Shown: piece after piece, positions 16,785 to 42,568 of the stretch
Layout of the letters: each line of letters opens with the position of its first letter
Position numbering within the stretch: the first letter of the stretch is position 1
Sequence record: MZ726796.1
DNA length: 46,233 bases
Direction: 5' to 3' (one strand)
Origin: Escherichia phage vB_EcoS_ASO78B
Program-made: the position numbers and the translations under genes
The notes under the pieces: generated by a model
Seen by the model: the letters and a program-made list of their open reading frames with translations, nothing else
Told to the model about the DNA's origin: nothing
The model's database searches: none

Positions 16785-16974
16785 ATACGAAGTCATCGCA
16801 CGCGGAATCTTTGTTAAAGAGAAAGGCAAGATCCGTGAGTTGCAGCTTGGCGAGGTGATTACCGAACCAGCCGAGCATCTGCTACCAAAGCTGCGCATCA
16901 TGCCAGAACTGGAAAAGTCTTTCGAAGTCGCAACACCACAACAAAAGACGACAAAGAAAAAGAAAGCAGAGTAA
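16777..16974 (+). CDS. hypothetical protein
   Basis: 65 aa; GGAGGT RBS; basic C-terminus. Confidence 0.4.
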   Translation: MAKYEVIARGIFVKEKGKIRELQLGEVITEPAEHLLPKLRIMPELEKSFEVATPQQKTTKKKKAE

Positions 16975-16976
16975 AC

Positions 16977-17003
16977 AAAACCCGCATAATGCGGGTTTTA
17001 TTG
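16977..17003. terminator. bidirectional terminator
   Basis: AAAACCCGC-ATAAT-GCGGGTTTTA between convergent + and - units. Confidence 0.65.
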
Positions 17004-17540
17004 CTACAGACGCATCGGCATAACAACAATCTTCGCAGTCTCGCCAGTTGGCGCACTAAGGCAGCAAGCTGCGGCATTTGTATTCCCATTCAATTCAAAC
17101 TTAACGCTACAGAATTTAGGATTAAACAGCTTCGCAGCTTTCTCGATATCCACAAGATAGCCAGCATTGAATCCGATGCAATCAGCAGCTTTCGTTTCCT
17201 TTGGTATCACGCGATCAATATCAGGGAATCGACCATCAATCTCTTCGCAGATACCAGCGCCAACCATCACGCCAGCTTCATTATGATATGTTGCAATTTT
17301 CGCCTTAGTATCAATGATTGCGCACTCATATCGCTTTGTTGGTGCCTTGCCAATCTTGATAATCACATTTTCTGTCAGCTTATTGTCATGACTGCTGCCA
17401 ATAAATGCACGATGACCGTCAGTTGATGCAATACGACCATCAGGCATAAAGCAAATACCATTCAGGTAGTAACGCACATCATTGCGAGCCTGAAATATTA
17501 ATGCTGATTCAAGTAATAGTTTGCTGATTTTTAGTTTCAT
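17004..17540 (-). CDS. truncated beta sliding-clamp (DnaN domain II-III) homolog
   Basis: DVRYYLNG, ASTDGHRA, IDGRFPD.DRVIPK and C-terminal KIVVMPMRL align to E. coli DnaN residues about 133-366; domain I absent, domain III shortened. Confidence 0.7.
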   Translation of the reverse strand: MKLKISKLLLESALIFQARNDVRYYLNGICFMPDGRIASTDGHRAFIGSSHDNKLTENVIIKIGKAPTKRYECAIIDTKAKIATYHNEAGVMVGAGICEEIDGRFPDIDRVIPKETKAADCIGFNAGYLVDIEKAAKLFNPKFCSVKFELNGNTNAAACCLSAPTGETAKIVVMPMRL

Positions 17541-17713
17541 CACTTCACCTTAATCATGTGCTGCTTTGCAACCTTCAGGCATTCTTCAAAAATGCCACCT
17601 TTCTTAGCGCTCTGATTGCGCTTGTAATACTGAATTGCCGCATCAACTGCCATCTGGTCGATGTCAGGCAGCTTGGCTCTTAATTGTTTTTCGATGAATT
17701 GTTCAGCGTTCAT
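17540..17713 (-). CDS. small hypothetical protein (57 aa)
   Basis: Hand-translated ORF (MNAEQFIEKQL..); stop overlaps the clamp-like gene ATG by 1 nt. Confidence 0.3.
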   Translation of the reverse strand: MNAEQFIEKQLRAKLPDIDQMAVDAAIQYYKRNQSAKKGGIFEECLKVAKQHMIKVK

Positions 17714-17954
17714 GATTTATCTTCACCCATCCTTTGCTTGCACCATGCGATACGATAAGTCCTTTCTTGCGCAACGCCTGAAGTCGGCGATCAAGGACTC
17801 GAAATCCCTCATGTGGTTTTGTTGCCAGCTTTTCACACTCTGCATGTATTCCGCTATGAATGCCTCCAGAGAAATGAATAGCCATGAACGTCATCGGCTC
17901 AACATAATCAAGCTCATCCATAATCATTGCGTCGAGTTCTTCATACTTGCTCAT
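17703..17954 (-). CDS. hypothetical protein
   Basis: 83 aa; C-terminal RVLDRRLQALRKKGLI may be a winged-helix DNA-binding element. Confidence 0.45.
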   Translation of the reverse strand: MSKYEELDAMIMDELDYVEPMTFMAIHFSGGIHSGIHAECEKLATKPHEGFRVLDRRLQALRKKGLIVSHGASKGWVKINHER

Positions 17955-18763
17955 CGCATCTTCTCCAGAATTGCCATGACCTCATGAATGTCAGCGACAG
18001 GAATCTGAATAAATTCCTCATCCTCTGCCACCACATGACCAGCAGGTAGAATTACATGGTCGGCTTGCTTCAACAGTTCAATCAGGCGGTCCACTGGCTT
18101 AATCTTCTTTGACTTCAGCACCTTCGCTGTGACCTTATCCTTGCCTTGCGCTTTAGCCTCTTCGACTGCCTCGTTGATAACTTTAACCGCATCATCACCA
18201 TGCTCGCGCGTTACCGCTACGGCGTTTGCATAGCTGATTTGCCCTGCGCTGATGCGAGCCTTCACTTCTGCTGGCACATCACCCAGTGACAGATGCATTT
18301 GCACGTCAGATACTGAACGACCTACCTTCTTGGCGATCTCTTCATTCGTCCAGCCAAAGCCTTTCAGTCTCGTATAAGCCTTCGCGCGCTCAAACGGGTC
18401 AAGTTGCTTTCCCTGACTGGATGAAACCATGAAGGCGATTTTATCTGCTTCGTCTCCGGTAAAATCCTTACACTCAATACGAACTATTGGTGCACCTCGT
18501 TCAATGGCACGCAATGCGCCGAGATAGCGATGCTGACCATCAAGAATGCGGATTCCCTTCTCGTCTGGAATGACTGTTAATGCTGGCAGTGGCTGACCTG
18601 ATTCCCAGCACTGCGCGAAATACTCCACATGCTGCTCATCTGCTTCACGGATGTTGTATCCTGGTTCCAGATAGATTTGCTCAACTGGCACTAGATAGGT
18701 TTTGTTAACAGCGATGCCGTTGCGCGTTTCTTTGTCTGAATAGATTTTGCTTAGTGTTTTCAT
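17951..18763 (-). CDS. ParB-like nuclease domain protein
   Basis: ParB/Srx-type motif IRILDGQHRYLGA in N-terminal half; 270 aa. Confidence 0.7.
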   Translation of the reverse strand: MKTLSKIYSDKETRNGIAVNKTYLVPVEQIYLEPGYNIREADEQHVEYFAQCWESGQPLPALTVIPDEKGIRILDGQHRYLGALRAIERGAPIVRIECKDFTGDEADKIAFMVSSSQGKQLDPFERAKAYTRLKGFGWTNEEIAKKVGRSVSDVQMHLSLGDVPAEVKARISAGQISYANAVAVTREHGDDAVKVINEAVEEAKAQGKDKVTAKVLKSKKIKPVDRLIELLKQADHVILPAGHVVAEDEEFIQIPVADIHEVMAILEKMR

Positions 18764-19107
18764 TGTTTCTTTCCTAATGCTTTCTTGATAGATTCTTCAG
18801 CCAACAGCAATTCTTCTGGGTATTGCTCATTCCAGTTTTGTTTGTATGCCTTGCTAAGCATTTTTTGCAGAGCTTCAAGCAACTCAGGTGCTGCTGCCAT
18901 TAAATTAAAGTCATGTTCAACAGATGAATCAATTTCCCATCGCACTCCATTAAATTTGGCTCCCTTGTTTGAATAAGCAATATTGCGAGAATCATCCCTG
19001 TGACATCCTGGAGTGTCATCAATGCAACTGGCTGGGTAAATTGCTGCGCAACCTCCACGGATGTCTGCAACCCAAGGCCGTTTCGTACCTTTGAATTCAT
19101 CTTTCAT
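18760..19107 (-). CDS. hypothetical protein
   Basis: 115 aa, first gene of the operon. Confidence 0.45.
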   Translation of the reverse strand: MKDEFKGTKRPWVADIRGGCAAIYPASCIDDTPGCHRDDSRNIAYSNKGAKFNGVRWEIDSSVEHDFNLMAAAPELLEALQKMLSKAYKQNWNEQYPEELLLAEESIKKALGKKQ

Positions 19108-19146: not shown

Positions 19147-19175
19147 ACTATAAACGCCGCACCAATCTACGTCAA
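19147..19175 (-). promoter_or_regulatory. sigma70-like promoter for the ParB/clamp operon
   Basis: minus strand TTGACG, 17-nt spacer, TATAGT; overlaps two copies of the recurring motif. Confidence 0.45.
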
Positions 19176-34244: not shown

Positions 34245-34730
34245 TCAGAAGGGTATTGAATCGTCGAAGTCCATTGGAGGCTCATTTCCTCCTTGTGGGC
34301 TTTGTTGTTTTGGTGGCTGTTGTTGTCTTTGCGGTTGCTGGCCTGATTGCTGGCGTGGTTGTTGCTGACCAGAATCATCACGTTTACCGCCAAGCATCTG
34401 CATGACGCCGCCCATCTGTGGAATGACAATCTCAGTGGTATATCGGTCTACGCCGTTGCTGTCAGTCCATTTTCTAGTGCGCAGCTGGCCTTCGATGTAA
34501 ACCTGAGAACCTTTGCGAAGGTATTCTCCTGCAACTTCTGCAAGTTTTCCGAAGATGACCACGCGATGCCATTCAGTCTGCTCTTTCTTTTCTCCTGTCT
34601 GCTTATCTTTCCACTGCTCAGATGTTGCAACTGAAAGATTGGCAATTGCAGAGCCTGATGCTGAATATTTAACTTCCGGGTAGTTACCGAGAGTGCCGAC
34701 AATAATTACTTTGTTTACGCCGCGTGCCAT
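34245..34730 (-). CDS. ssb: single-stranded DNA-binding protein
   Basis: OB-fold N-terminus ([11 protein letters not shown]), Gln/Pro-rich linker and acidic C-terminal tip DFDDSIPF. Confidence 0.9.
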
Positions 34731-34733
34731 TTA

Positions 34734-35393
34734 TTAAAATCCTTCAATTGGAGTTGGTTTATGTTCGGTTTTTTCTTCCTGCGGTTCTGGATGTTGAGGT
34801 TGCGGTTTGGCCAGTTTTGCAGGGTTGAATGATTCGCCTGATACCATGAATTTAGCCTTCATCTCTTGGTAAGCACCAACAATAACGCGAGTTGCTGCAT
34901 CGTCTCCACGGAACGCCTTGTATTCATCGCCATAGATTGAAGCTAACTCTTCCATGCTGGCTGCGTTGCGAATCAATGCGACAGCATCCTTTGGCGATTT
35001 GCGAGCAGCATTACCGTCATCATCAGCCTGAGCAATGCCAAACATTGCTGCGATGGAATATCTTCGCGCATATGTCATTGCCGAGCCGTACCCCTGCGCA
35101 TCCTTCTTAGCAACTGGCATTGGCATCACTGACGACATGTACTCACCGGACTCATGCATTATCGTTGTTTCAAGTTTAAGCACATCCATTGAATCACCAT
35201 CAATGGCATTCTGGATGATTATAAGTCCGTTCGCCTCAAGCGCAGGACGTATTGCATCAAGAAACGACTCAAGGTTTGCGTAGTTGCTTTTCAGGTGTGG
35301 GTTTTTTGCATTTTTCTTTGCTCCGCTACTCATCACCTTTCGAGCTTCAACCAGCGCCTTAATCAGGTTGGCTTTCTGTTCCGAGAAAATCAT
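34734..35393 (-). CDS. ERF-family single-strand annealing protein
   Basis: GSAMTYARRYSIAAMFGIAQADDDG resembles the P22 Erf core (GATSSYARKY..LFGIDDAKD). Confidence 0.7.
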   Translation of the reverse strand: MIFSEQKANLIKALVEARKVMSSGAKKNAKNPHLKSNYANLESFLDAIRPALEANGLIIIQNAIDGDSMDVLKLETTIMHESGEYMSSVMPMPVAKKDAQGYGSAMTYARRYSIAAMFGIAQADDDGNAARKSPKDAVALIRNAASMEELASIYGDEYKAFRGDDAATRVIVGAYQEMKAKFMVSGESFNPAKLAKPQPQHPEPQEEKTEHKPTPIEGF

Positions 35394-35409
35394 TTCATCA
35401 CCTCACTAA

Positions 35410-36348
35410 TTATAAATTAAACTGTTTTTTGAACCACTCAGGCGTTTCCATTTCTATGACAGGATTACCCATTGAATAACCCGGCCACGAATTGGCTTTT
35501 TTGCACGCTTTGTAAATTTCCATTGCACCATGCAACTGAATTCGACCAATATGCAACTGCTCTTCCGTTAATCTAATTAACGCAGGAATAAACGGAGCTT
35601 TCTTTTCCTGAACTAAAAGGTTTACCGAACGCGGTGCATGACCGTATGCCGCAACAAACATATCGTGTTGCATCGCCATTTTCATAAAGTAACCAAGTCG
35701 CGCAGCATGGCGAAAAAACTCATCAGGCTTGGCGCTCACCGCTGTCTTGTAGTCAATGATGTCTCCACCTTTGGTAAGGCAGTCAAAGCGAACTTTTGCT
35801 TTTTCTCCATTAAGCTCACCAAGAATTGACACCTCAGCATAAGCACCAGAAAGAAGACTGCTGTAATAGCTATTTGCGTGGATTACAGCACGCATTTGCT
35901 GAATAGAGTCATAATCACTGCCTTCCAGCATCTGCTTTCCTGCAGCAGCTTTTTCCGCCTCTTCACGGATTACATCGTAAATTTTCACTGGCTCGCCAGT
36001 TGCACGAATGATTTTGATCACATCAGATTTAGACTTTCCTGAAAGTCCTTTAATGCCTCGTTCTTTCGCCCATGAGTTCATGTCACTGACAGTAACTAGC
36101 AGGTCATCACCAAAATCTTCTTTTGTTGGCATACGAGCATATTCAGCATCGAAACGCTCAGGTTCAAGAAGAGCTGTATGGCTACCAGTACCAAAAATGA
36201 GAGCCTTTGATTTCTCATCTTCTTCGTCTTTGTAGCGCCAAGCTGCAGGGCATCTGTCATACAGATTCCACAGACCAGAGCCATTAATATGCTCTGTGTC
36301 GGCGTGGTAATCCTGATTGCTTAATTCATTATTGAAATAGACTTTCAT
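35410..36348 (-). CDS. PD-(D/E)XK family exonuclease
   Basis: 312 aa from ATG 36348; D...DYKT catalytic-type motif (GGDIIDYKT); adjacent to ERF and SSB. Confidence 0.65.
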   Translation of the reverse strand: MKVYFNNELSNQDYHADTEHINGSGLWNLYDRCPAAWRYKDEEDEKSKALIFGTGSHTALLEPERFDAEYARMPTKEDFGDDLLVTVSDMNSWAKERGIKGLSGKSKSDVIKIIRATGEPVKIYDVIREEAEKAAAGKQMLEGSDYDSIQQMRAVIHANSYYSSLLSGAYAEVSILGELNGEKAKVRFDCLTKGGDIIDYKTAVSAKPDEFFRHAARLGYFMKMAMQHDMFVAAYGHAPRSVNLLVQEKKAPFIPALIRLTEEQLHIGRIQLHGAMEIYKACKKANSWPGYSMGNPVIEMETPEWFKKQFNL

Positions 36349-36385
36349 TGTTAACCTCACTCATCATCACGTAAATGAATCTACA

Positions 36386-36862
36386 TCAATCTACATCGGA
36401 AAGCAAGCCAAAATAGAAAAGCGTGGCTTTTTTTAGTTGCTCAAGACCATAAGCGATAGCGGCGTAGTGACCGAGTCTGCACATCTCAGTTAGCACGGCA
36501 TACTGGTCTTTGCTCACTCTGCTCTTACTTTTGTCACGGCGCTTTGCCTCAATCATTCCACAACTGTGCTTCACTCCAGGCGTCATTATCACGTTGTCGC
36601 CTATTCCAGTCTTAACCCCCATCTTCTGGCGTTTCAGTACGAACTGGATGCGGCTGGACGTGCCTGTTTCATTCGGGACGTGAAACCAGAGCACGTCAGG
36701 GAATTGGCTTTGCATCCATGTGCCGTAACCCATCTGTTCAGTCTCCTCTTTCGGGCATTCCCCACGATAACCGCTATCAAATACCCATATACCGCTATCA
36801 AGCTGCTTCACTTTGTTCTCCTGCAAAATCTTTTCTGTGGATGATGTCGCGACCTTTATCAT
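36386..36862 (-). CDS. VRR-NUC domain nuclease
   Basis: GDNVIMTPG...GMIEAKRRD...SKDQYAVL pattern; start uncertain because the 5' end overlaps the helicase. Confidence 0.6.
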   Translation of the reverse strand: MIKVATSSTEKILQENKVKQLDSGIWVFDSGYRGECPKEETEQMGYGTWMQSQFPDVLWFHVPNETGTSSRIQFVLKRQKMGVKTGIGDNVIMTPGVKHSCGMIEAKRRDKSKSRVSKDQYAVLTEMCRLGHYAAIAYGLEQLKKATLFYFGLLSDVD

Positions 36863-38720
36863 TAATGCGGTGCGTGATGCGTTTTGGCGCTTTAATCAAT
36901 GCCGCATACATCATGAATTGCTTGGCGTTTTGGCATTTCAGTATTTTCCCCGCCATTGACTTATCATCAAGGTGAGGAAAGACCGCCTTTGCCTTGAACA
37001 TGTTTTTCATGTGAGTTGCGCCACCATAAGGGTAGAAAACTTCGTTAGCCCAGCCTTCTTTGCCATCACAACGATTAATCCAGTAGCGATACAAAATACC
37101 TTCTCCATCCTTAGTTAACTGGACTTTGAAATCCATAACATCAGCCCACTCATTATCGGTATACGCACGCTCATTAAGTGCCGCATTCGGGTCGCGCAAA
37201 ACATGATCGCAATGTCGGCAATAACGCGCAGTGGGGTCGTTTTTAGTGCCGCAGCCATCATCAAAAATACGGATTCCGTGCTTATCGAAACCGCAACGGA
37301 TGTAACTGAAAAACTCCTCGCAACGACCGTCTGGCGATAATGCATCTTTGCCAATGCAGCGGCGCGCATATGGGCTGTTCATTGTCCCGCACTTCGGACA
37401 CGGAACCTGTTCACCACTGCGTTTTGAACGTTGCGCTTCAGCCTCTTCAAGGATTGGGTCTTCATACAGCTGACCAAGCTCAAACATCGTGCCTGAGAAA
37501 TCAAGAACCAGATGATCTTCTTTATGATACCCGGCATCAATTTGCTCTTTCTTCAGCAAGCGCATCCCGCGACCAAGCAACTGGACAAGGAGAGTTAGCG
37601 ACATTATTTTTCGTAATATGCAGCTCGTATCCCATAGCGGAATGTTGACACCAGTGGTAAGGGCTGCTATCTGGAATGTGAATTTTTTGCGCCCGGTGTA
37701 TGCATCTTTTAGAGCCTTCCTTCTGGCTTTTGGCCCCATATCTTCTGTAACTATTGAATAGCTTCCTTCAGGTAGGTATTTTGCCGCCTCCTGACAGTGC
37801 TTCTTGCCAGCACATGTAATCAATACTCCGTTTCTGTTTTTAGTCAGCTCCATAACCTTTAGCATTATTTTCTGCGTCAGCGTACCTTGTTCAAGGATTT
37901 CTTTCTGCATCTGCTTGAGCTGCTCGGTGGTAAAGTCCTGTGTGCCATCAACATCTGAACCATGAAACTCGGAAAGGTCATAATGCAGACTATCAACATC
38001 ATGAAGACCAAAAATTGTTGGCACAAGAAAGCCGTTTTCAACCATGTACTTGGTGTCTATATTGATAATCTCTTTCTTCCAGAAAGCGCCTTTTATTGAT
38101 GTAGTTCCGCGAAACGGTGAGCCTGTATAACCTATTATTCTCAACTCATGGCCGTGCTTATCTTTGCACCTTTTCATTAGCTCATTAATTATCACTGCAT
38201 ACTGCGTATCACCATCATTAACAACATCAATGTCATTAACCATATGATTTTCATCGATAAGCAGGAATCTTGGGCAAAAGTCAGAAAGCGCACCTTTTGC
38301 AATAACATTCCCTGATTCATCATTTTTATCAAACAAAGCATTTACAACAGTACCCTCAGAACCACAAATTATTGGATACGTAGAACTTTTCCTCCCCAAC
38401 GAAGCGCTGAATAGCGAGTTTCTTACACCAAGCGACCATAGCTCTTCCGCATCTTGCTCCACTATTTCGCCCTGTCTTGATAAAATCATCCCTGAATAGC
38501 CCATTTCCTGAAAACGCTTTGCTATCATGGCAATCATCAGTGACTTTCCGCTACCGACGCTTGCTGTTACATAGCTTGGACCAACATAATGGCGGATCAC
38601 ATCACCAGTTAACTTATATATCAACCACTGATATGGTCTTGGCTCGATATCACCAGTATCCAGATAAGATTTCAGTAGATTAATATCAATCTCTGAAATC
38701 ATCTTGTCTATTTTATGCAT
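36798..38720 (-). CDS. SF2 DNA helicase (DExH box) with C-terminal zinc ribbons
   Basis: Walker A SVGSGKS, LLIDENH DExH box, C-terminal CPKCG...C and CRHC pairs. Confidence 0.8.
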   Translation of the reverse strand: MHKIDKMISEIDINLLKSYLDTGDIEPRPYQWLIYKLTGDVIRHYVGPSYVTASVGSGKSLMIAMIAKRFQEMGYSGMILSRQGEIVEQDAEELWSLGVRNSLFSASLGRKSSTYPIICGSEGTVVNALFDKNDESGNVIAKGALSDFCPRFLLIDENHMVNDIDVVNDGDTQYAVIINELMKRCKDKHGHELRIIGYTGSPFRGTTSIKGAFWKKEIINIDTKYMVENGFLVPTIFGLHDVDSLHYDLSEFHGSDVDGTQDFTTEQLKQMQKEILEQGTLTQKIMLKVMELTKNRNGVLITCAGKKHCQEAAKYLPEGSYSIVTEDMGPKARRKALKDAYTGRKKFTFQIAALTTGVNIPLWDTSCILRKIMSLTLLVQLLGRGMRLLKKEQIDAGYHKEDHLVLDFSGTMFELGQLYEDPILEEAEAQRSKRSGEQVPCPKCGTMNSPYARRCIGKDALSPDGRCEEFFSYIRCGFDKHGIRIFDDGCGTKNDPTARYCRHCDHVLRDPNAALNERAYTDNEWADVMDFKVQLTKDGEGILYRYWINRCDGKEGWANEVFYPYGGATHMKNMFKAKAVFPHLDDKSMAGKILKCQNAKQFMMYAALIKAPKRITHRINDKGRDIIHRKDFAGEQSEAA

Positions 38721-39241
38721 TATTTTACCCTACCAAATTCACCATGATACTTTTTTGATGCTTCCGCATAAACTTTTGCTGCTTCTTCTTTTGTATCATA
38801 TCTGCCGAGCCATATTTTTTTATTATTTACATGTATAGAGCAAGTCCATTTTTTTGTTTGCTTACAAAAACCAACCCCTTTTACACCGGATGTGTTATGG
38901 CTTGGAATCCTCATGTTTCTTAAATTTCCATTAAAGTTTGTTTCTCTTAGGTTTTCTATCCTGTTATTCAATCTATTACCATCTTTATGGTCTATTATTA
39001 ACTCAGGCCAATAACCATGCACTAAAGCCCAAATTATTCTATGAACCTTTATATCAACCCCTAAAAATCCAACCTGAAGATATCCACTTACAGTCTTCGA
39101 ACCTGCAATAGCGCCACGTTTAACCCTGTTTGTTGTTGTTCTTTTCCATATGAGATTTATTCCGTCATATGAAAAATACTCCCGCAGCGTGGATACTGGT
39201 ATTGACTTCTCTTTTAACTTCATCAATTCGAAATCATTCAC
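38720..39241 (-). CDS. HNH-AP2 homing endonuclease (paralog of 548-1060)
   Basis: IDHKDGNRLNNRIENLRE HNH motif and SGVKGVGF..GRY AP2-like region; 1-nt overlap with helicase start. Confidence 0.8.
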   Translation of the reverse strand: MNDFELMKLKEKSIPVSTLREYFSYDGINLIWKRTTTNRVKRGAIAGSKTVSGYLQVGFLGVDIKVHRIIWALVHGYWPELIIDHKDGNRLNNRIENLRETNFNGNLRNMRIPSHNTSGVKGVGFCKQTKKWTCSIHVNNKKIWLGRYDTKEEAAKVYAEASKKYHGEFGRVK

Positions 39242-39303
39242 TTTACGTTACCCTCACTCAGTGTTACGCTTAAAGCATACAAACAGTAACAGATGGAGTC
39301 AAC

Positions 39304-40254
39304 ATGTTTTATTGGGAAGAGATACAACAAAAGATGATTGGAAATTGGGAGGCGGCATTACTGTCAATAGTCAACATAGACAGGAAAATTTTTTCTGGGA
39401 AACATCAACCATGCCCTCATTGCATGGGGGTTGATCGGTTCCGCTGGGATAATCACTTCGAAATCAAAGGCGATGGCGGCGCAATATGCAATCAGTGCGG
39501 GTCAGGTAGCGGCATGAACTGGCTGATGAAACTTTCAGGCATGAACTTCCCTGAAGCACTAGAGGCGCTTGGTGGATTCCTGAATATGCACCCACGCGAA
39601 AAGCTGGAGGCAATCAGGAAGGAGTTGCCGAAGATAAATTACAACGATGACTTCATCACCGAGCAGGAAGTCGCCGCAATCATGTCTAAAACTACGCGTG
39701 TCTCGATGAATGAGTGGACTTTGACAAATGGTATTGGTTGTGACGTTAACGTCGTCAGAGGCAAATCTGGAGAGCTTATTGCGGTTGAGATGGTGCGTGC
39801 TGATACAATGAAGCCGTGCAACGTAGCATTCATTGGCATGGATGGTGATTCATTCAGAACGTTTTTCCGCGCAGGATACAACAAGGACTCAGCCATCAAC
39901 GGCAAACTCACACGCGGCGCGATAAGCACAATCGGAGAAGATAATGGAAAGTTCATTTATCTGGTATCTGATTATGCCGATGCGTGGAAGTGCCATTACT
40001 TCACTGGCGCGCATGTCTGGTGCTGCTGGTATCCTGAAAACATGTGGGAAGTGGTGCGTTCTGTTAGCGATGAGATGAAGGCACGGTTACGCTGCATAGT
40101 TAATTATAAATTTGACGAACTTTGTGCTGCGGAAAATGCAGGACTTCCGGTGATGTTGCCTGATGATGCTGACACTATCAGGATGGCGAAGCGAATCAGA
40201 AGAAAGATTTATGACGCTGGCGAGTTGATAGAAAAAATGTCAGTAAGCAGATAA
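39304..40254 (+). CDS. DNA primase (zinc-ribbon N-terminus)
   Basis: GKHQPCPHCMGVDRFRWDNH...CNQCGSGSGMNWLMK matches the primase zinc-binding ribbon pattern; only + strand gene inside the minus-strand module. Confidence 0.65.
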   Translation: MFYWEEIQQKMIGNWEAALLSIVNIDRKIFSGKHQPCPHCMGVDRFRWDNHFEIKGDGGAICNQCGSGSGMNWLMKLSGMNFPEALEALGGFLNMHPREKLEAIRKELPKINYNDDFITEQEVAAIMSKTTRVSMNEWTLTNGIGCDVNVVRGKSGELIAVEMVRADTMKPCNVAFIGMDGDSFRTFFRAGYNKDSAINGKLTRGAISTIGEDNGKFIYLVSDYADAWKCHYFTGAHVWCCWYPENMWEVVRSVSDEMKARLRCIVNYKFDELCAAENAGLPVMLPDDADTIRMAKRIRRKIYDAGELIEKMSVSR

Positions 40255-40257
40255 AAG

Positions 40258-40283
40258 AAACCCTCCAATAGGAGGGTTTTTGT
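40258..40283. terminator. bidirectional terminator
   Basis: AAACCCTCC-AATA-GGAGGGTTTTT. Confidence 0.7.
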
Positions 40284-40699
40284 TATTCCTTGAACTCTGG
40301 CGCTTCAGTCCAGAAGGCTACATTTCGCAGCGACTTACCCGTGTGATTGCACCAGTATATGCCTGAGTCATCATACTTCGCAGTAACCTTTACGCGATCA
40401 GCATCAATAACAACAACCTCCTGTCCATCTTTAGGGTCGAAAAGACGCGCATCTTTCCAGTTAGCAATCTCATTAAGTGAAAGAATGACATAACCAGGAA
40501 GATAAGAGCCGACATCAGCGATGTGAACTATAGTTCTCTCTGTTCTCTCTCCTGTGTAGTCTCCATTCCACTCATAAAGAATAATCGTGTCTCCAACCTT
40601 AAAATCACGATCGTTCTTTCTTAGTTCCGCCTTCTTGTGTCCGGTGACTACAGGCCAGAAGTGCTCAGGTAAAATTTTAAGTTCGTGTGTTTTGCTCAT
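40283..40699 (-). CDS. DUF3850 / ASCH-like (PUA-fold) domain protein
   Basis: N-terminal HELKILPEHF..V.TG.KKAELRKNDRDFKVGD matches the DUF3850 pattern as recalled; about 60-aa C-terminal extension. Confidence 0.55.
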   Translation of the reverse strand: MSKTHELKILPEHFWPVVTGHKKAELRKNDRDFKVGDTIILYEWNGDYTGERTERTIVHIADVGSYLPGYVILSLNEIANWKDARLFDPKDGQEVVVIDADRVKVTAKYDDSGIYWCNHTGKSLRNVAFWTEAPEFKE

Positions 40700-42276
40700 T
40701 ACAACCCCCTCATAAATCTCATGCGCTTAACGGCAGCAGAAAGATAATTTCTAACAGTTGAGTTCATCCGCAGACCATCCCATGAACCATCACTACACAT
40801 CTTAATTGCTCTTGGATTATCCCTGTCCAGCATTAGTGGTGAATGTTTGTTCTCCTCAATGGCAAGAAGAACTTCATAAACAAATTTATCCGGCGTTAAT
40901 GTGATATTATTCGAGTCAGCAGAATTGATTATCTTTTCAACTCTGTCACGGCACAGCTTGTTCTTTATAACAGACAAATAAGGCGTTTTAATGAATGCCT
41001 GCGATTCACAAATTCGCTTTATTTTTTCAACAATGTTCGACCACTCAGTATTCTCAAGCCCATCAAATGCCTGTTCACCCTCAAGGAATCTTTTCAGCCC
41101 TGCGAGGTGTTCAAGAACCGTGAGATAACCCCACTCGATATGCTCCGTCGTCACTGATGGTGTCATCCCCCGCCGACTTGACAGATCGGTATACGCCGCC
41201 AGAGTTGCAAGATCGACAATCATTAGACCCATACGAGGGATAACATCGCCAACAACACCATCGCAATCACCAAGCTCACTTTCCAGTTTCATAGACAGAT
41301 ATCTGTGCAGTTTTTTCGCATTATCATCAGCCCACACAACGTTAGTTTTCGCGGTAAGAACCCTACCTTTCCACTCATTGATTATTTTTCTTGAAAGCGT
41401 ACCACTCACTTCCACATCCTTCATTGCTGGCATTTCCTCACCAGCAAGATGACCAAGCTGGAACAGCACGCGCCCCATACCGCCATCCTTCTGCCATGAA
41501 CGCGCAGCATCTATTCCCTGCTCTGGCGTGACAGTAATCAGCGGAACAAATTTTGCGTTTTCAATTCCACCGTCTTTTGTTGCAAGTTCGTACTCATTCA
41601 TTGCCGACTTTAGCGCGCGCCCAACGCTGTGGTCCATCATCGCAAGGCGCTTATAATCTATGACTCCTTTCCCATCATCGCCACCAGTAAGTGGCACTAT
41701 CCATCCCTCAGCACTTGCTGCCGCCATGATGCGTTTTGGGTTTTGTTCCCAAGTAAGGTTTTCAAGCAACTCCTTGATTATTGGTCTGTTAGGCACCCAC
41801 ACTCCGCCATCAGTTAGGCCTCTATACCACGCCATCGTACCGCCAAGATATGCATTGCGCGGGTTGTTCCAGTCTTCAAGATGTTGCTTGTCATCGTTCA
41901 CAACGTAGAGCAAAGACCCACCTCCGGCAATCAGGTCTAACTGCATCTGTTTCGTCGATGTTGATTTAGATGCACAAACTCTGGAACCTATTCCCAGCTC
42001 ATTGGCATATGCCCTGACGAAACTCACCGGTGCACCCTTACCTGCACCAGAGCGAGCTACCAGAAATATGCCAGTATTGCAGATACTACCTGTTGGACCA
42101 ATCAAGTATCGTCCAGCCATCGCCTGAGCAAGGCCCAAAGCGCCAGTTAATCGATATCTTTCCCCTCCCTCACGGCGCTCAAACCCCCTTGCGATCTCAT
42201 CCATAAACTCACCAAGTGCCCCGGGAGTCTCCCGATTTATGCCCATAGCCAGAGACTCAAAATCAATCGAACTCAT
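40699..42276 (-). CDS. large hypothetical protein (525 aa)
   Basis: start taken at MSSIDF (ATG 42276) with GGAGGGTG RBS; GAGKG segment is not a canonical Walker A; ATGA-coupled to the DUF3850 gene. Confidence 0.5.
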   Translation of the reverse strand: MSSIDFESLAMGINRETPGALGEFMDEIARGFERREGGERYRLTGALGLAQAMAGRYLIGPTGSICNTGIFLVARSGAGKGAPVSFVRAYANELGIGSRVCASKSTSTKQMQLDLIAGGGSLLYVVNDDKQHLEDWNNPRNAYLGGTMAWYRGLTDGGVWVPNRPIIKELLENLTWEQNPKRIMAAASAEGWIVPLTGGDDGKGVIDYKRLAMMDHSVGRALKSAMNEYELATKDGGIENAKFVPLITVTPEQGIDAARSWQKDGGMGRVLFQLGHLAGEEMPAMKDVEVSGTLSRKIINEWKGRVLTAKTNVVWADDNAKKLHRYLSMKLESELGDCDGVVGDVIPRMGLMIVDLATLAAYTDLSSRRGMTPSVTTEHIEWGYLTVLEHLAGLKRFLEGEQAFDGLENTEWSNIVEKIKRICESQAFIKTPYLSVIKNKLCRDRVEKIINSADSNNITLTPDKFVYEVLLAIEENKHSPLMLDRDNPRAIKMCSDGSWDGLRMNSTVRNYLSAAVKRMRFMRGL

Positions 42277-42568
42277 CAATACACCCTCCATACGCGCAAG
42301 AATTTACCCGGGATAACACCATGTTTCACCGTTAACACAGCACCCACCCTGTCAGCCTCAATTTTTAGCGCTTTCTGAAGTGACGCCACTGTCATCTGAA
42401 AACCTCGCTCTATGTCGTATGCGTAGCACCCATCTCTGCCACCAATCAAAATTGAAGTTGAATACCCGTTCTCAAAGTAAAACTGACACCCATCAGGAAC
42501 GGTAAGATTATTTATCACGTCGTTAGCAAGCGATGTCGTAACAGGGAATATCGGCGCGCAACTCATAC
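42276..42568 (-). CDS. hypothetical protein
   Basis: about 97 aa from MSCAPIF; 1-nt overlap with the 525-aa gene. Confidence 0.4.

What the first reader, a model, noticed from the sequence alone, without database searches (positions are those of the whole stretch)
17004..17540. Free-standing truncated beta sliding-clamp (DnaN domain II-III) homolog
The 179-aa product aligns by eye with E. coli DnaN from about residue 133 to the C-terminus: DVRYYLNG is identical, ATDGHR and DGRFPD..RV[IL]PK are conserved, and the protein ends in VVMPMRL like DnaN. Domain I is missing and domain III is shortened, so it cannot form a normal head-to-tail clamp ring alone. It could co-assemble with or cap the host clamp (hijacking or poisoning host replication or repair), or serve a phage-specific clamp function. 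It sits in a translationally coupled operon with a ParB-like protein, an association I do not recognise as described.
Basis: partly seen in the sequence, partly recalled or inferred. Interest (0 to 1): 0.85.

Follow-up and report, generated by a model that had tools for sequence, protein, structure and literature searches.

The report
Phage-borne truncated sliding-clamp pocket module
A small phage gene encodes only the part of the bacterial DNA sliding clamp that forms the docking pocket for polymerases and repair enzymes, without the parts that close the ring, so it probably captures clamp-binding proteins rather than acting as a clamp; the family is common in phages but I found no study of it.

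Summary

Sixteen of the 18 residues of the clamp-binding-motif (CBM) pocket are identical to E. coli. They are also the most conserved columns across 134 diverse family members (p = 9e-7). The family (PHROG 3007, mislabelled "RusA-like resolvase") occurs in 274 phage records, almost always at 170-215 aa. Contexts vary: a lone antisense gene inside head modules, early operons of temperate phages, next to DNA methyltransferases. The ParB-like neighbour is specific to the Skatevirus/Roufvirus lineage.

Best reading (inferred): a ring-incompetent pocket module that captures CBM-bearing host proteins off the clamp. The main rival is a loader-independent open clamp like herpesvirus UL42/UL44, supported by a basic pI and a predicted homodimer. 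Capping or co-assembly with the host ring is unlikely. It is a new variant of a known kind and has not been characterised experimentally.

The parts
17004..17540 (-). Short DnaN-like gene (178 aa). It comprises clamp domain II plus the second half of domain III, keeps the CBM pocket, and has no ring interfaces.
17540..17713 (-). 57-aa gene (phrog_4439, unknown function). Its stop codon overlaps the start of the short-clamp gene. It is always immediately upstream in the Skatevirus/Roufvirus cluster and absent elsewhere.
17703..17954 (-). 83-aa gene (phrog_7185) in a variable slot. Phage Bas78 carries a C5-cytosine methyltransferase at this position.
17951..18763 (-). ParB-like protein, 270 aa (HTH_ParB and KorB domains; DGQHR motif in the N-terminal domain).
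18760..19107 (-). First gene of the operon, 115 aa (phrog_1273, unknown function).
19147..19175 (-). Sigma-70-like promoter candidate (TTGACG-17-TATAGT, 10 of 12 matches) just upstream of the operon. This is a consensus match only.
16974..17002 (.). Bidirectional intrinsic-terminator hairpin between the converging head genes and the operon (AAAACCCGCAUUAUGCGGGUUUU followed by a U-tract).

Best explanation
The gene encodes a ring-incompetent 'pocket module' of the bacterial beta sliding clamp. It keeps domain II and the adjoining half of domain III, which are the two pieces that together form the hydrophobic pocket into which clamp-binding motifs (CBMs; QLxLF or QLxLxF) of polymerases and repair proteins dock. 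It has lost everything needed to close a ring.

Most likely mechanism (inferred): the protein, perhaps as a two-fold homodimer, is made from its own promoter. It binds the CBMs of host clamp clients in solution and so diverts them from the host clamp. Candidate clients are Hda, Pol II/IV/V, MutS/MutL, the delta subunit and RecB. This would make it a competitive decoy serving host takeover. The multivalent Pol III holoenzyme-clamp-DNA complex, which this polymerase-less phage needs, would be less sensitive to a monovalent competitor.

Shown: homology, fold, the exact truncation, pocket conservation, absence of the interface segments, and wide phage distribution.

Inferred: peptide binding, the identity of the clients, and the direction of the effect.
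For: - Pocket: 16 of the 18 pocket residues listed in PMC11139829 are identical to E. coli; the exceptions are L177 to A and V344 to T.
- Family conservation: across 134 members drawn from clusters at 50% identity, the columns conserved at 90% or more are D21 R23 Y25 L26 G28 T40 G42 H43 P106 Y128 M174 P175. These correspond to beta D150 R152 Y154 L155 G157 T172 G174 H175 P242 Y323 M362 P363. Pocket columns have a mean top-residue frequency of 0.73 against 0.37 for the rest (Mann-Whitney p 9e-7).
- C-terminus: 99 of 134 members end in MPx[RK], and 87 of those have 2 or fewer residues after it, as in DnaN.
- Ring interfaces are absent.
- Consistent short architecture: the best 150 of 2020 representative clusters are nearly all 170-215 aa.
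- Independence from replisome type: this phage has SSB, Erf, an ExoVIII-like nuclease, a helicase and a primase but no DNA polymerase. Dhillonvirus AV129 has its own PolA, and neither its PolA nor its helicases carry a CBM.
- Accessory-type locations: a lone antisense 'moron' gene flanked by terminators inside head modules, and early-left or early-right operons of temperate phages.
Against: - No binding data exist, and no client has been identified.
- The pocket columns are also the most conserved part of true DnaN, so their retention shows the pocket is in use but not for what.
- A general decoy would risk starving a phage that depends on host Pol III. My avidity argument for selectivity is reasoning, not evidence.
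- The family has shifted to a basic pI (query 8.64; family median 8.25, against 5.80 for the equivalent E. coli segment). It keeps Lys/Arg on the helices and loop that face DNA in beta. A pure decoy does not need these.
- The AF2 linked-dimer model predicts a confident homodimer (pTM 0.78). This fits a structural DNA-bound role at least as well.
Confidence: 0.4

Rival explanations
1. Loader-independent open clamp or tether, working like herpesvirus UL42/UL44. The protein dimerises through its orphan half-domain, so that two half-domains rebuild one complete clamp domain. The result would be an open three-domain arc with a basic concave face that binds DNA directly without a clamp loader. Its pockets would then recruit CBM-bearing enzymes to phage DNA: host Pol III in polymerase-less phages, and Pol I, ligase and others elsewhere.
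For: - The linked-homodimer AF2 model has pTM 0.78 with a disordered linker. Unplaced halves would give about 0.5 by my estimate, so this implies a confident relative placement.
- Residues 121-125 and 145-149 become beta strands in both copies of the dimer model but not in the monomer model.
- Basic shift: pI 8.64, family median 8.25, with 64% of members above 7.5.
- Lys/Arg are conserved at positions 11, 19, 134, 137 and 142, and a G-K-[IV]-P-K/A-K loop replaces helix alpha2 of domain II. All of these lie on elements that line the DNA channel in beta.
- In a lambdoid phage the gene sits directly before the O/P-like replication genes.
Against: - The dimer geometry could not be inspected, because no coordinates were available. 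Foldseek of the dimer model was uninformative (TMq 0.33).
- Linked-copy homodimer predictions can be artefacts.
- One DNA-lining helix has been lost.
- Host beta and its loader are available to these phages anyway.
- The phage PolA in Dhillonvirus has no CBM.
- The gene behaves as a mobile accessory gene rather than a fixed replisome part.
Confidence: 0.3
2. One reading: the fragment co-assembles with, or caps, the host beta ring, for example by binding an opened clamp interface, and so poisons host clamps.
For: It is a clamp-fold homologue with exposed sheet edges. Dominant-negative fragments are a known viral strategy (general knowledge).
Against: - Both halves of the beta dimer interface are missing: I78/R103/F106 in domain I, and I272/L273/E298/E304 in the first half of domain III.
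- The residues under strongest selection map to the pocket, not to edges.
- The exposed edge of domain II normally pairs in cis with domain I, which is never free in the host protein (established structure of beta).
Confidence: 0.05
3. ParB-coupled hybrid. The ParB-like protein, from a family whose members include CTP-gated DNA-sliding clamps, provides the DNA loading. The short DnaN, perhaps through the 57-aa protein, provides a polymerase-docking pocket. Together they would form a surrogate clamp.
For: The genes are translationally coupled in one operon. The order ParB-like, variable slot, 57-aa gene, short clamp is conserved from Skatevirus to Roufvirus.
Against: - The short clamp occurs without ParB in most other lineages.
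- The only CBM-like strings in ParB (QMHLSL, and QLDPF read directly from the sequence) lie in structured ParB motifs.
- The ParB-like N-domain has DGQHR instead of the GERRxR CTP-binding motif.
- No interaction was tested.
Confidence: 0.05
4. It is a RusA-like Holliday-junction resolvase, as RefSeq and Pharokka annotate it, or else a decaying and functionless gene fragment.
For: PHROG 3007 carries the label 'RusA-like Holliday junction resolvase'. The label has been copied into many records.
Against: - No RusA Pfam hit appears even at E <= 1.
- The fold is unambiguously a clamp.
- The family keeps its length, termini and motifs across 274 phage records and more than 150 clusters at 50% identity, which excludes decay.
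Confidence: 0.02

Closest known systems
Bacterial beta sliding clamp (DnaN, E. coli P0A988; Pfam PF00712/PF02767/PF02768; TIGR00663)
   Same: Homologous sequence and fold over domain II and the second half of domain III. The CBM pocket is nearly identical (16 of 18 residues). The C-terminus is the same (VVMPMRL).
   Different: It is half the size. There is no domain I and no first half of domain III. One inner helix is lost and there are no dimer-interface residues. The pI is basic rather than acidic. It scores below the curated cut-offs of every DnaN model (TIGR00663 36 bits against 137.65; Pfam 16.5 and 11.9 against 27).
E. coli beta* (the 26-kDa UV-inducible product of an internal start in dnaN, domains II-III; Skaliter, Paz-Elizur and Livneh, J Biol Chem 1996; recalled from my own knowledge, not retrieved here)
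   Same: It starts at almost the same point of the clamp (about residue 135), lacks domain I and keeps the pocket.
   Different: Beta* keeps the whole of domain III and was reported to act as a processivity clamp, probably as a trimer. It is made from the host dnaN gene. The phage protein lacks half of domain III and is a separate, ancient and diverse gene family.
Herpesvirus processivity factors UL42 (monomer) and UL44 (two-fold C-shaped dimer)
   Different: There is no sequence relationship. UL42 and UL44 have two complete domains and bind their own viral polymerase. The phage protein has 1.5 domains and a pocket of the bacterial type.
Engineered monomeric beta (I272A/L273A)
   Same: A ring-incompetent clamp with an intact pocket. 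The review read reports that it binds the delta subunit about 50-fold more tightly than dimeric beta, which shows that an off-ring pocket can capture clients.
   Different: It is a laboratory mutant of full length with three domains.
Phage proteins that target the host clamp (Twort Gp168, PDB 7evp; Mu MuC, PMC12867686)
   Same: These are phage strategies aimed at the clamp-client hub.
   Different: They bind to host beta. The present protein imitates part of beta.

Membership tests
Beta sliding clamp DnaN | Three clamp-fold domains of about 366 aa that pass the curated model cut-offs | tested here: not met
   The protein is 178 aa. There is no PF00712 hit. PF02767 scores 16.5 and PF02768 11.9 bits against a cut-off of 27. 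TIGR00663 scores 36.2 against 137.65.
Beta sliding clamp DnaN | Sequence and structural homology to the clamp domains | tested here: met
Beta sliding clamp DnaN | Head-to-tail dimer interface (I78, R103, F106 with I272, L273, E298, E304) | tested here: not met
   All of these residues lie in segments with no counterpart in the protein.
Beta sliding clamp DnaN | Clamp-binding-motif pocket (subsites I and II) | tested here: met
   16 of 18 residues are identical, and these are the most conserved columns of the family. Actual peptide binding was not tested.
Beta sliding clamp DnaN | Closed ring that encircles DNA and is loaded by the DnaX complex | not testable with these tools
   This needs biochemistry. 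The missing interfaces make it unlikely.
E. coli beta* (domains II-III) | Complete domains II and III | tested here: not met
   DnaN ~254-313 is absent and helix 197-208 is replaced by a loop.
PHROG 3007 | Full-length match to the profile | tested here: met
   E 4.2e-62, residues 1-178 on profile positions 1-186 of 190.
RusA Holliday-junction resolvase | RusA domain or fold | tested here: not met
   No RusA hit at E <= 1 in Pfam. The fold is a clamp.
UL42/UL44-type open processivity factors (works like, not homologous) | Clamp fold without ring closure | tested here: met
UL42/UL44-type open processivity factors (works like, not homologous) | Basic DNA-binding face, with DNA binding that needs no loader | tested here: inconclusive
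   pI is 8.64, family median 8.25, with conserved Lys/Arg on channel-equivalent elements. No coordinates and no binding assay were available.
UL42/UL44-type open processivity factors (works like, not homologous) | Two-fold homodimer forming a C-shaped clamp (UL44) | tested here: inconclusive
   The linked-dimer AF2 model has pTM 0.78 and new strands at 121-125 and 145-149. The geometry was not inspectable.

The most novel reading that the evidence does not exclude
Two copies pair through their orphan half-domains and rebuild one complete clamp domain. This would give a two-fold symmetric, open, three-domain arc with a basic concave face and two bacterial-type CBM pockets. It would be a bacteriophage counterpart of the herpesvirus UL44 C-clamp. 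Such an arc could bind DNA without any clamp loader and bring host Pol III or maturation enzymes onto phage DNA. A further possibility is a D2 tetramer ring of 12 beta-alpha-beta-beta-beta units, made of 4 x 3 units instead of 2 x 6 or 3 x 4. Either would be a clamp stoichiometry and assembly principle not seen before.
Probability: 0.2. Interest if true: 0.85.

Novelty: new variant of a known kind. Interest (0 to 1): 0.62.

Why it matters
The beta clamp pocket is the central docking hub of bacterial replication and repair, and it is a validated antibiotic target. Here a large, ancient phage family has pared the clamp down to that pocket: 274 phage records and more than 150 clusters at 50% identity.

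- If it is a decoy, it is a natural, genetically encoded competitor of clamp-client interactions. It would show which host clients phages need to neutralise.
- If it is an open clamp, it is a new clamp architecture and a loader-free way of recruiting host polymerases.

Either way it corrects a widely propagated mis-annotation ('RusA-like resolvase'). It is also directly testable, because close relatives of this phage (Bas77-81) are in the public BASEL collection.

Tried and rejected
- CBM-like motifs in this phage's own proteins. The only hits in real genes lie in structured regions: QLDLI sits between the Walker A and B motifs of a 530-aa P-loop protein found in just 10 phage records, and QMHLSL sits in the ParB HTH. 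I rejected both as partners.
- CBM search in Dhillonvirus AV129 PolA and helicases: none found.
- Shared downstream partner gene. The two 245-aa neighbours in Vibrio XM1 and Klebsiella IME279 are unrelated. The small upstream ORF in Proteus ZX7 is unrelated to the 57-aa gene.
- Foldseek of the linked dimer against PDB was uninformative, because the alignment is sequential (TMq 0.33).
- The afdb50 fold library was not available.
- Model coordinates cannot be reached from the script environment. I therefore could not inspect interface geometry, surface electrostatics or the pocket shape.
- Literature searches for a described short phage clamp found nothing relevant. The BASEL paper does not mention the gene. 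I could not retrieve the beta* papers and cite them from memory.
- I considered RecB as a client because of a 2025 preprint reporting a RecB CBM. I could not test this.

Full report
**What is there**

Window 17004-17540 (minus strand) is a 178-aa ORF starting at an ATG. An AAGGTGA Shine-Dalgarno sequence precedes it. Its ATG overlaps the TGA of the upstream 57-aa gene by one base. A strong hairpin terminator follows directly after the stop codon (16974-17002, dG -19.1 kcal/mol, z -6.2).

It is the last of five minus-strand genes with overlapping starts and stops:
- a 115-aa gene
- a ParB-like gene of 270 aa
- an 83-aa gene
- a 57-aa gene
- the short clamp gene

These sit behind a sigma-70-like site, TTGACG-17-TATAGT, at 19175-19147. 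The operon lies antisense inside the head-gene cluster of a siphovirus. The phage is about 90% identical over this region to Salmonella phages Akira and INT55, Escherichia phage swi2 and the BASEL phages Bas78-81. The BASEL paper places Bas77-81 in the Skatevirus cluster.

**Is the similarity real?**

Yes.
- phmmer against PDB sequences returns only beta sliding clamps. The best E-value is 2.4e-12, with query 7-153 aligned to DnaN 136-288.
- BLASTP against E. coli DnaN (sequence) splits the match in two. Residues 7-120 align to DnaN 136-250, which is domain II. Residues 122-178 align to DnaN 317-366, which is the second half of domain III.
- TIGR00663 gives E 3e-9 but only 36 bits against a cut-off of 137.65. 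The Pfam domain II and III models also fall below their cut-offs. The protein is therefore a homologue of DnaN but not a DnaN.

**Structure**

The secondary structure reads beta-alpha-beta-beta-beta, then beta-(loop)-beta-beta-beta, then (beta)-alpha-beta-beta-beta. Three differences from DnaN follow from this:
- Domain I is absent.
- DnaN ~254-313 is absent.
- The second inner helix of domain II (DnaN ~197-208) is replaced by a 9-residue loop.

From the known clamp structure, the retained half of domain III is the half that abuts domain II. The deleted half is the distal one, which carries I272 and L273. Together with the domain I residues I78, R103 and F106, these form the dimer interface (residue list from the review read). 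Neither side of the ring-closure interface exists in this protein.

**What selection has kept**

The review lists 18 residues that form the clamp-binding-motif (CBM) pocket. Sixteen are identical in the window protein.

Across the 134-member alignment the columns conserved at 90% or more are D21 R23 Y25 L26 G28 T40 G42 H43 P106 Y128 M174 P175. These correspond to beta D150 R152 Y154 L155 G157 T172 G174 H175 P242 Y323 M362 P363. Nine are pocket residues and three are their immediate neighbours.

Pocket columns have a mean top-residue frequency of 0.73, against 0.37 elsewhere (p 9e-7). The MPx[RK] motif lies within two residues of the C-terminus in 87 of the 134 members. The conserved function of the family is therefore almost certainly the docking of a CBM-type peptide. 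This is an inference from conservation, because no binding was measured.

**The family**

- PHROG 3007 matches over the full length (E 4e-62), but it is labelled 'RusA-like Holliday junction resolvase'. No RusA signal exists. The label has spread into RefSeq records.
- tblastn finds the gene in 274 phage records from Salmonella, Escherichia, Klebsiella, Vibrio, Proteus, Burkholderia, Pseudomonas, Acinetobacter and other hosts.
- An exhaustive search of 1.84 billion representatives gives 2020 clusters at E <= 1e-3. Of the best 150, 133 are 165-220 aa and most of the rest are shorter fragments. The truncated architecture is thus old and stable.
- It is rare on plasmids, and there it sits in prophage-like regions.

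**Genomic context**

The ParB-like neighbour is specific to one lineage.
- The order ParB-like, variable slot, 57-aa gene, short clamp holds from Skatevirus to Roufvirus. The 57-aa gene is confined to that cluster (146 records).
- In Kagunavirus Schulenburg and Dhillonvirus AV129 the gene is a lone antisense gene inside the head module. In Schulenburg terminators are annotated around it, and the AV129 depositors flagged it as a possible moron.
- In the lambdoid Hafnia phage yong1 it lies between cII and the genes for a replication initiator (as annotated in the record) and a DnaC-like helicase loader.
- In Vibrio XM1, Klebsiella IME279 and a metagenomic contig it is within two genes of a Dam methyltransferase, with SSB or helicase genes nearby.
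- In two plasmid-borne prophage-like regions it lies in the early operon downstream of the repressor gene; one of them runs on to xis-int.

The window phage has SSB, Erf, an ExoVIII-like nuclease, an SF2 helicase and a primase, but no DNA polymerase. AV129 has its own PolA, and neither that enzyme nor its helicases carry a CBM. The gene is therefore independent of the phage's replisome type.

**Mechanism**

The firm core is a ring-incompetent clamp fragment that retains the client-docking pocket. Two directions remain open.

(a) Decoy. My preferred reading, at 0.40, is that it captures the CBMs of host clamp clients off the ring.
- This fits its accessory, mobile, moron-like distribution and its indifference to replisome type.
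- The review's report that monomeric beta binds delta about 50-fold more tightly than the dimer shows that an off-ring pocket can work.
- The multivalent holoenzyme-clamp-DNA complex should resist a monovalent competitor. That would spare the Pol III that this phage needs. This point is reasoning only.
- Candidate clients are Hda, Pol II/IV/V, MutS/L, delta and RecB. A CBM in RecB was reported in a 2025 preprint.

(b) Loader-independent open clamp, at 0.30.
- The family is basic: pI 8.64 here and a median of 8.25, against 5.80 for the equivalent E. coli segment.
- It keeps Lys/Arg on the elements that line the DNA channel in beta.
- AF2 on a linked dimer gives pTM 0.78 and new strands at 121-125 and 145-149 in both copies. 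This suggests that two orphan half-domains complete each other, as in the UL44 C-clamp.
- I could not inspect that model.

Capping or co-assembly with host beta (0.05) lacks any interface. A ParB-coupled surrogate clamp (0.05) cannot be general.

**Comparison with known systems, and novelty**

The protein works like part of DnaN but fails three defining features of DnaN: three domains, the dimer interface, and the curated model scores. The nearest precedent is E. coli beta*, which starts at the same point but keeps all of domain III (recalled from my own knowledge; the papers were not retrieved).

Full-text searches found no description of this phage family. Annotation pipelines have already noticed the homology itself ('DNA polymerase III beta subunit'). 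What appears to be undescribed is the precise pocket-only architecture, its conservation pattern and its breadth.

Verdict: a real feature and a new variant of a known kind. Interest 0.62.

Noticed in passing
window 17004-17540; RefSeq records of relatives such as L001 17516-18052: PHROG 3007 is labelled 'RusA-like Holliday junction resolvase'. The label is copied into many RefSeq and Pharokka annotations, although the protein is a clamp homologue with no RusA signal.
   Followed up: yes
window 17703-17954; L011 1698-2495 (Bas78): The slot between the ParB-like gene and the 57-aa gene is variable. It holds an 83-aa gene here and in swi2, and a 265-aa C5-cytosine DNA methyltransferase in Bas78 and some relatives.
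   Followed up: partly
L004 6380-7045; L009 3259-3960; L014 4225-4953; L011 1698-2495: DNA methyltransferase genes (Dam-type in three cases, C5-type in one) lie beside or near the short clamp gene in four otherwise different phage contexts. This could be mere co-location in early operons or a functional link. It is unexplained.
   Followed up: partly
window 17951-18763: The N-terminal domain of the ParB-like protein carries DGQHR where canonical ParB has the GERRxR CTP-binding box (weak TIGR03187 DGQHR hit). It may therefore not be a CTP-gated clamp.
   Followed up: no
window 34245-42291: The replication and recombination module has SSB, Erf, an ExoVIII-like PDDEXK nuclease, an SF2 helicase with zinc ribbons, a primase and an ASCH/DUF3850 protein, but no DNA polymerase. 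The phage must use a host polymerase.
   Followed up: partly
window 40699-42291: A 530-aa P-loop protein (Walker A motif GAGKG) has only a weak 'primase' PHROG hit. It is present in just 10 phage records and is 53% identical to its counterpart in swi2, so it is a mosaic, fast-evolving replication-module gene of unknown role.
   Followed up: partly
window 38720-39241: An HNH endonuclease with an AP2 DNA-binding domain is inserted between the helicase and primase genes. It is probably a homing endonuclease.
   Followed up: no
L003 4962-5483; L005 2682-3194; window 17004-19107: In three different siphovirus lineages (Kagunavirus, Dhillonvirus, Skatevirus) the short clamp gene sits antisense at a comparable place among the head-module genes. 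This suggests a recurrent insertion site for accessory genes.
   Followed up: partly
window 16989-17426 (+): A 145-aa plus-strand ORF lies entirely antisense to the clamp gene. It is most likely spurious.
   Followed up: no
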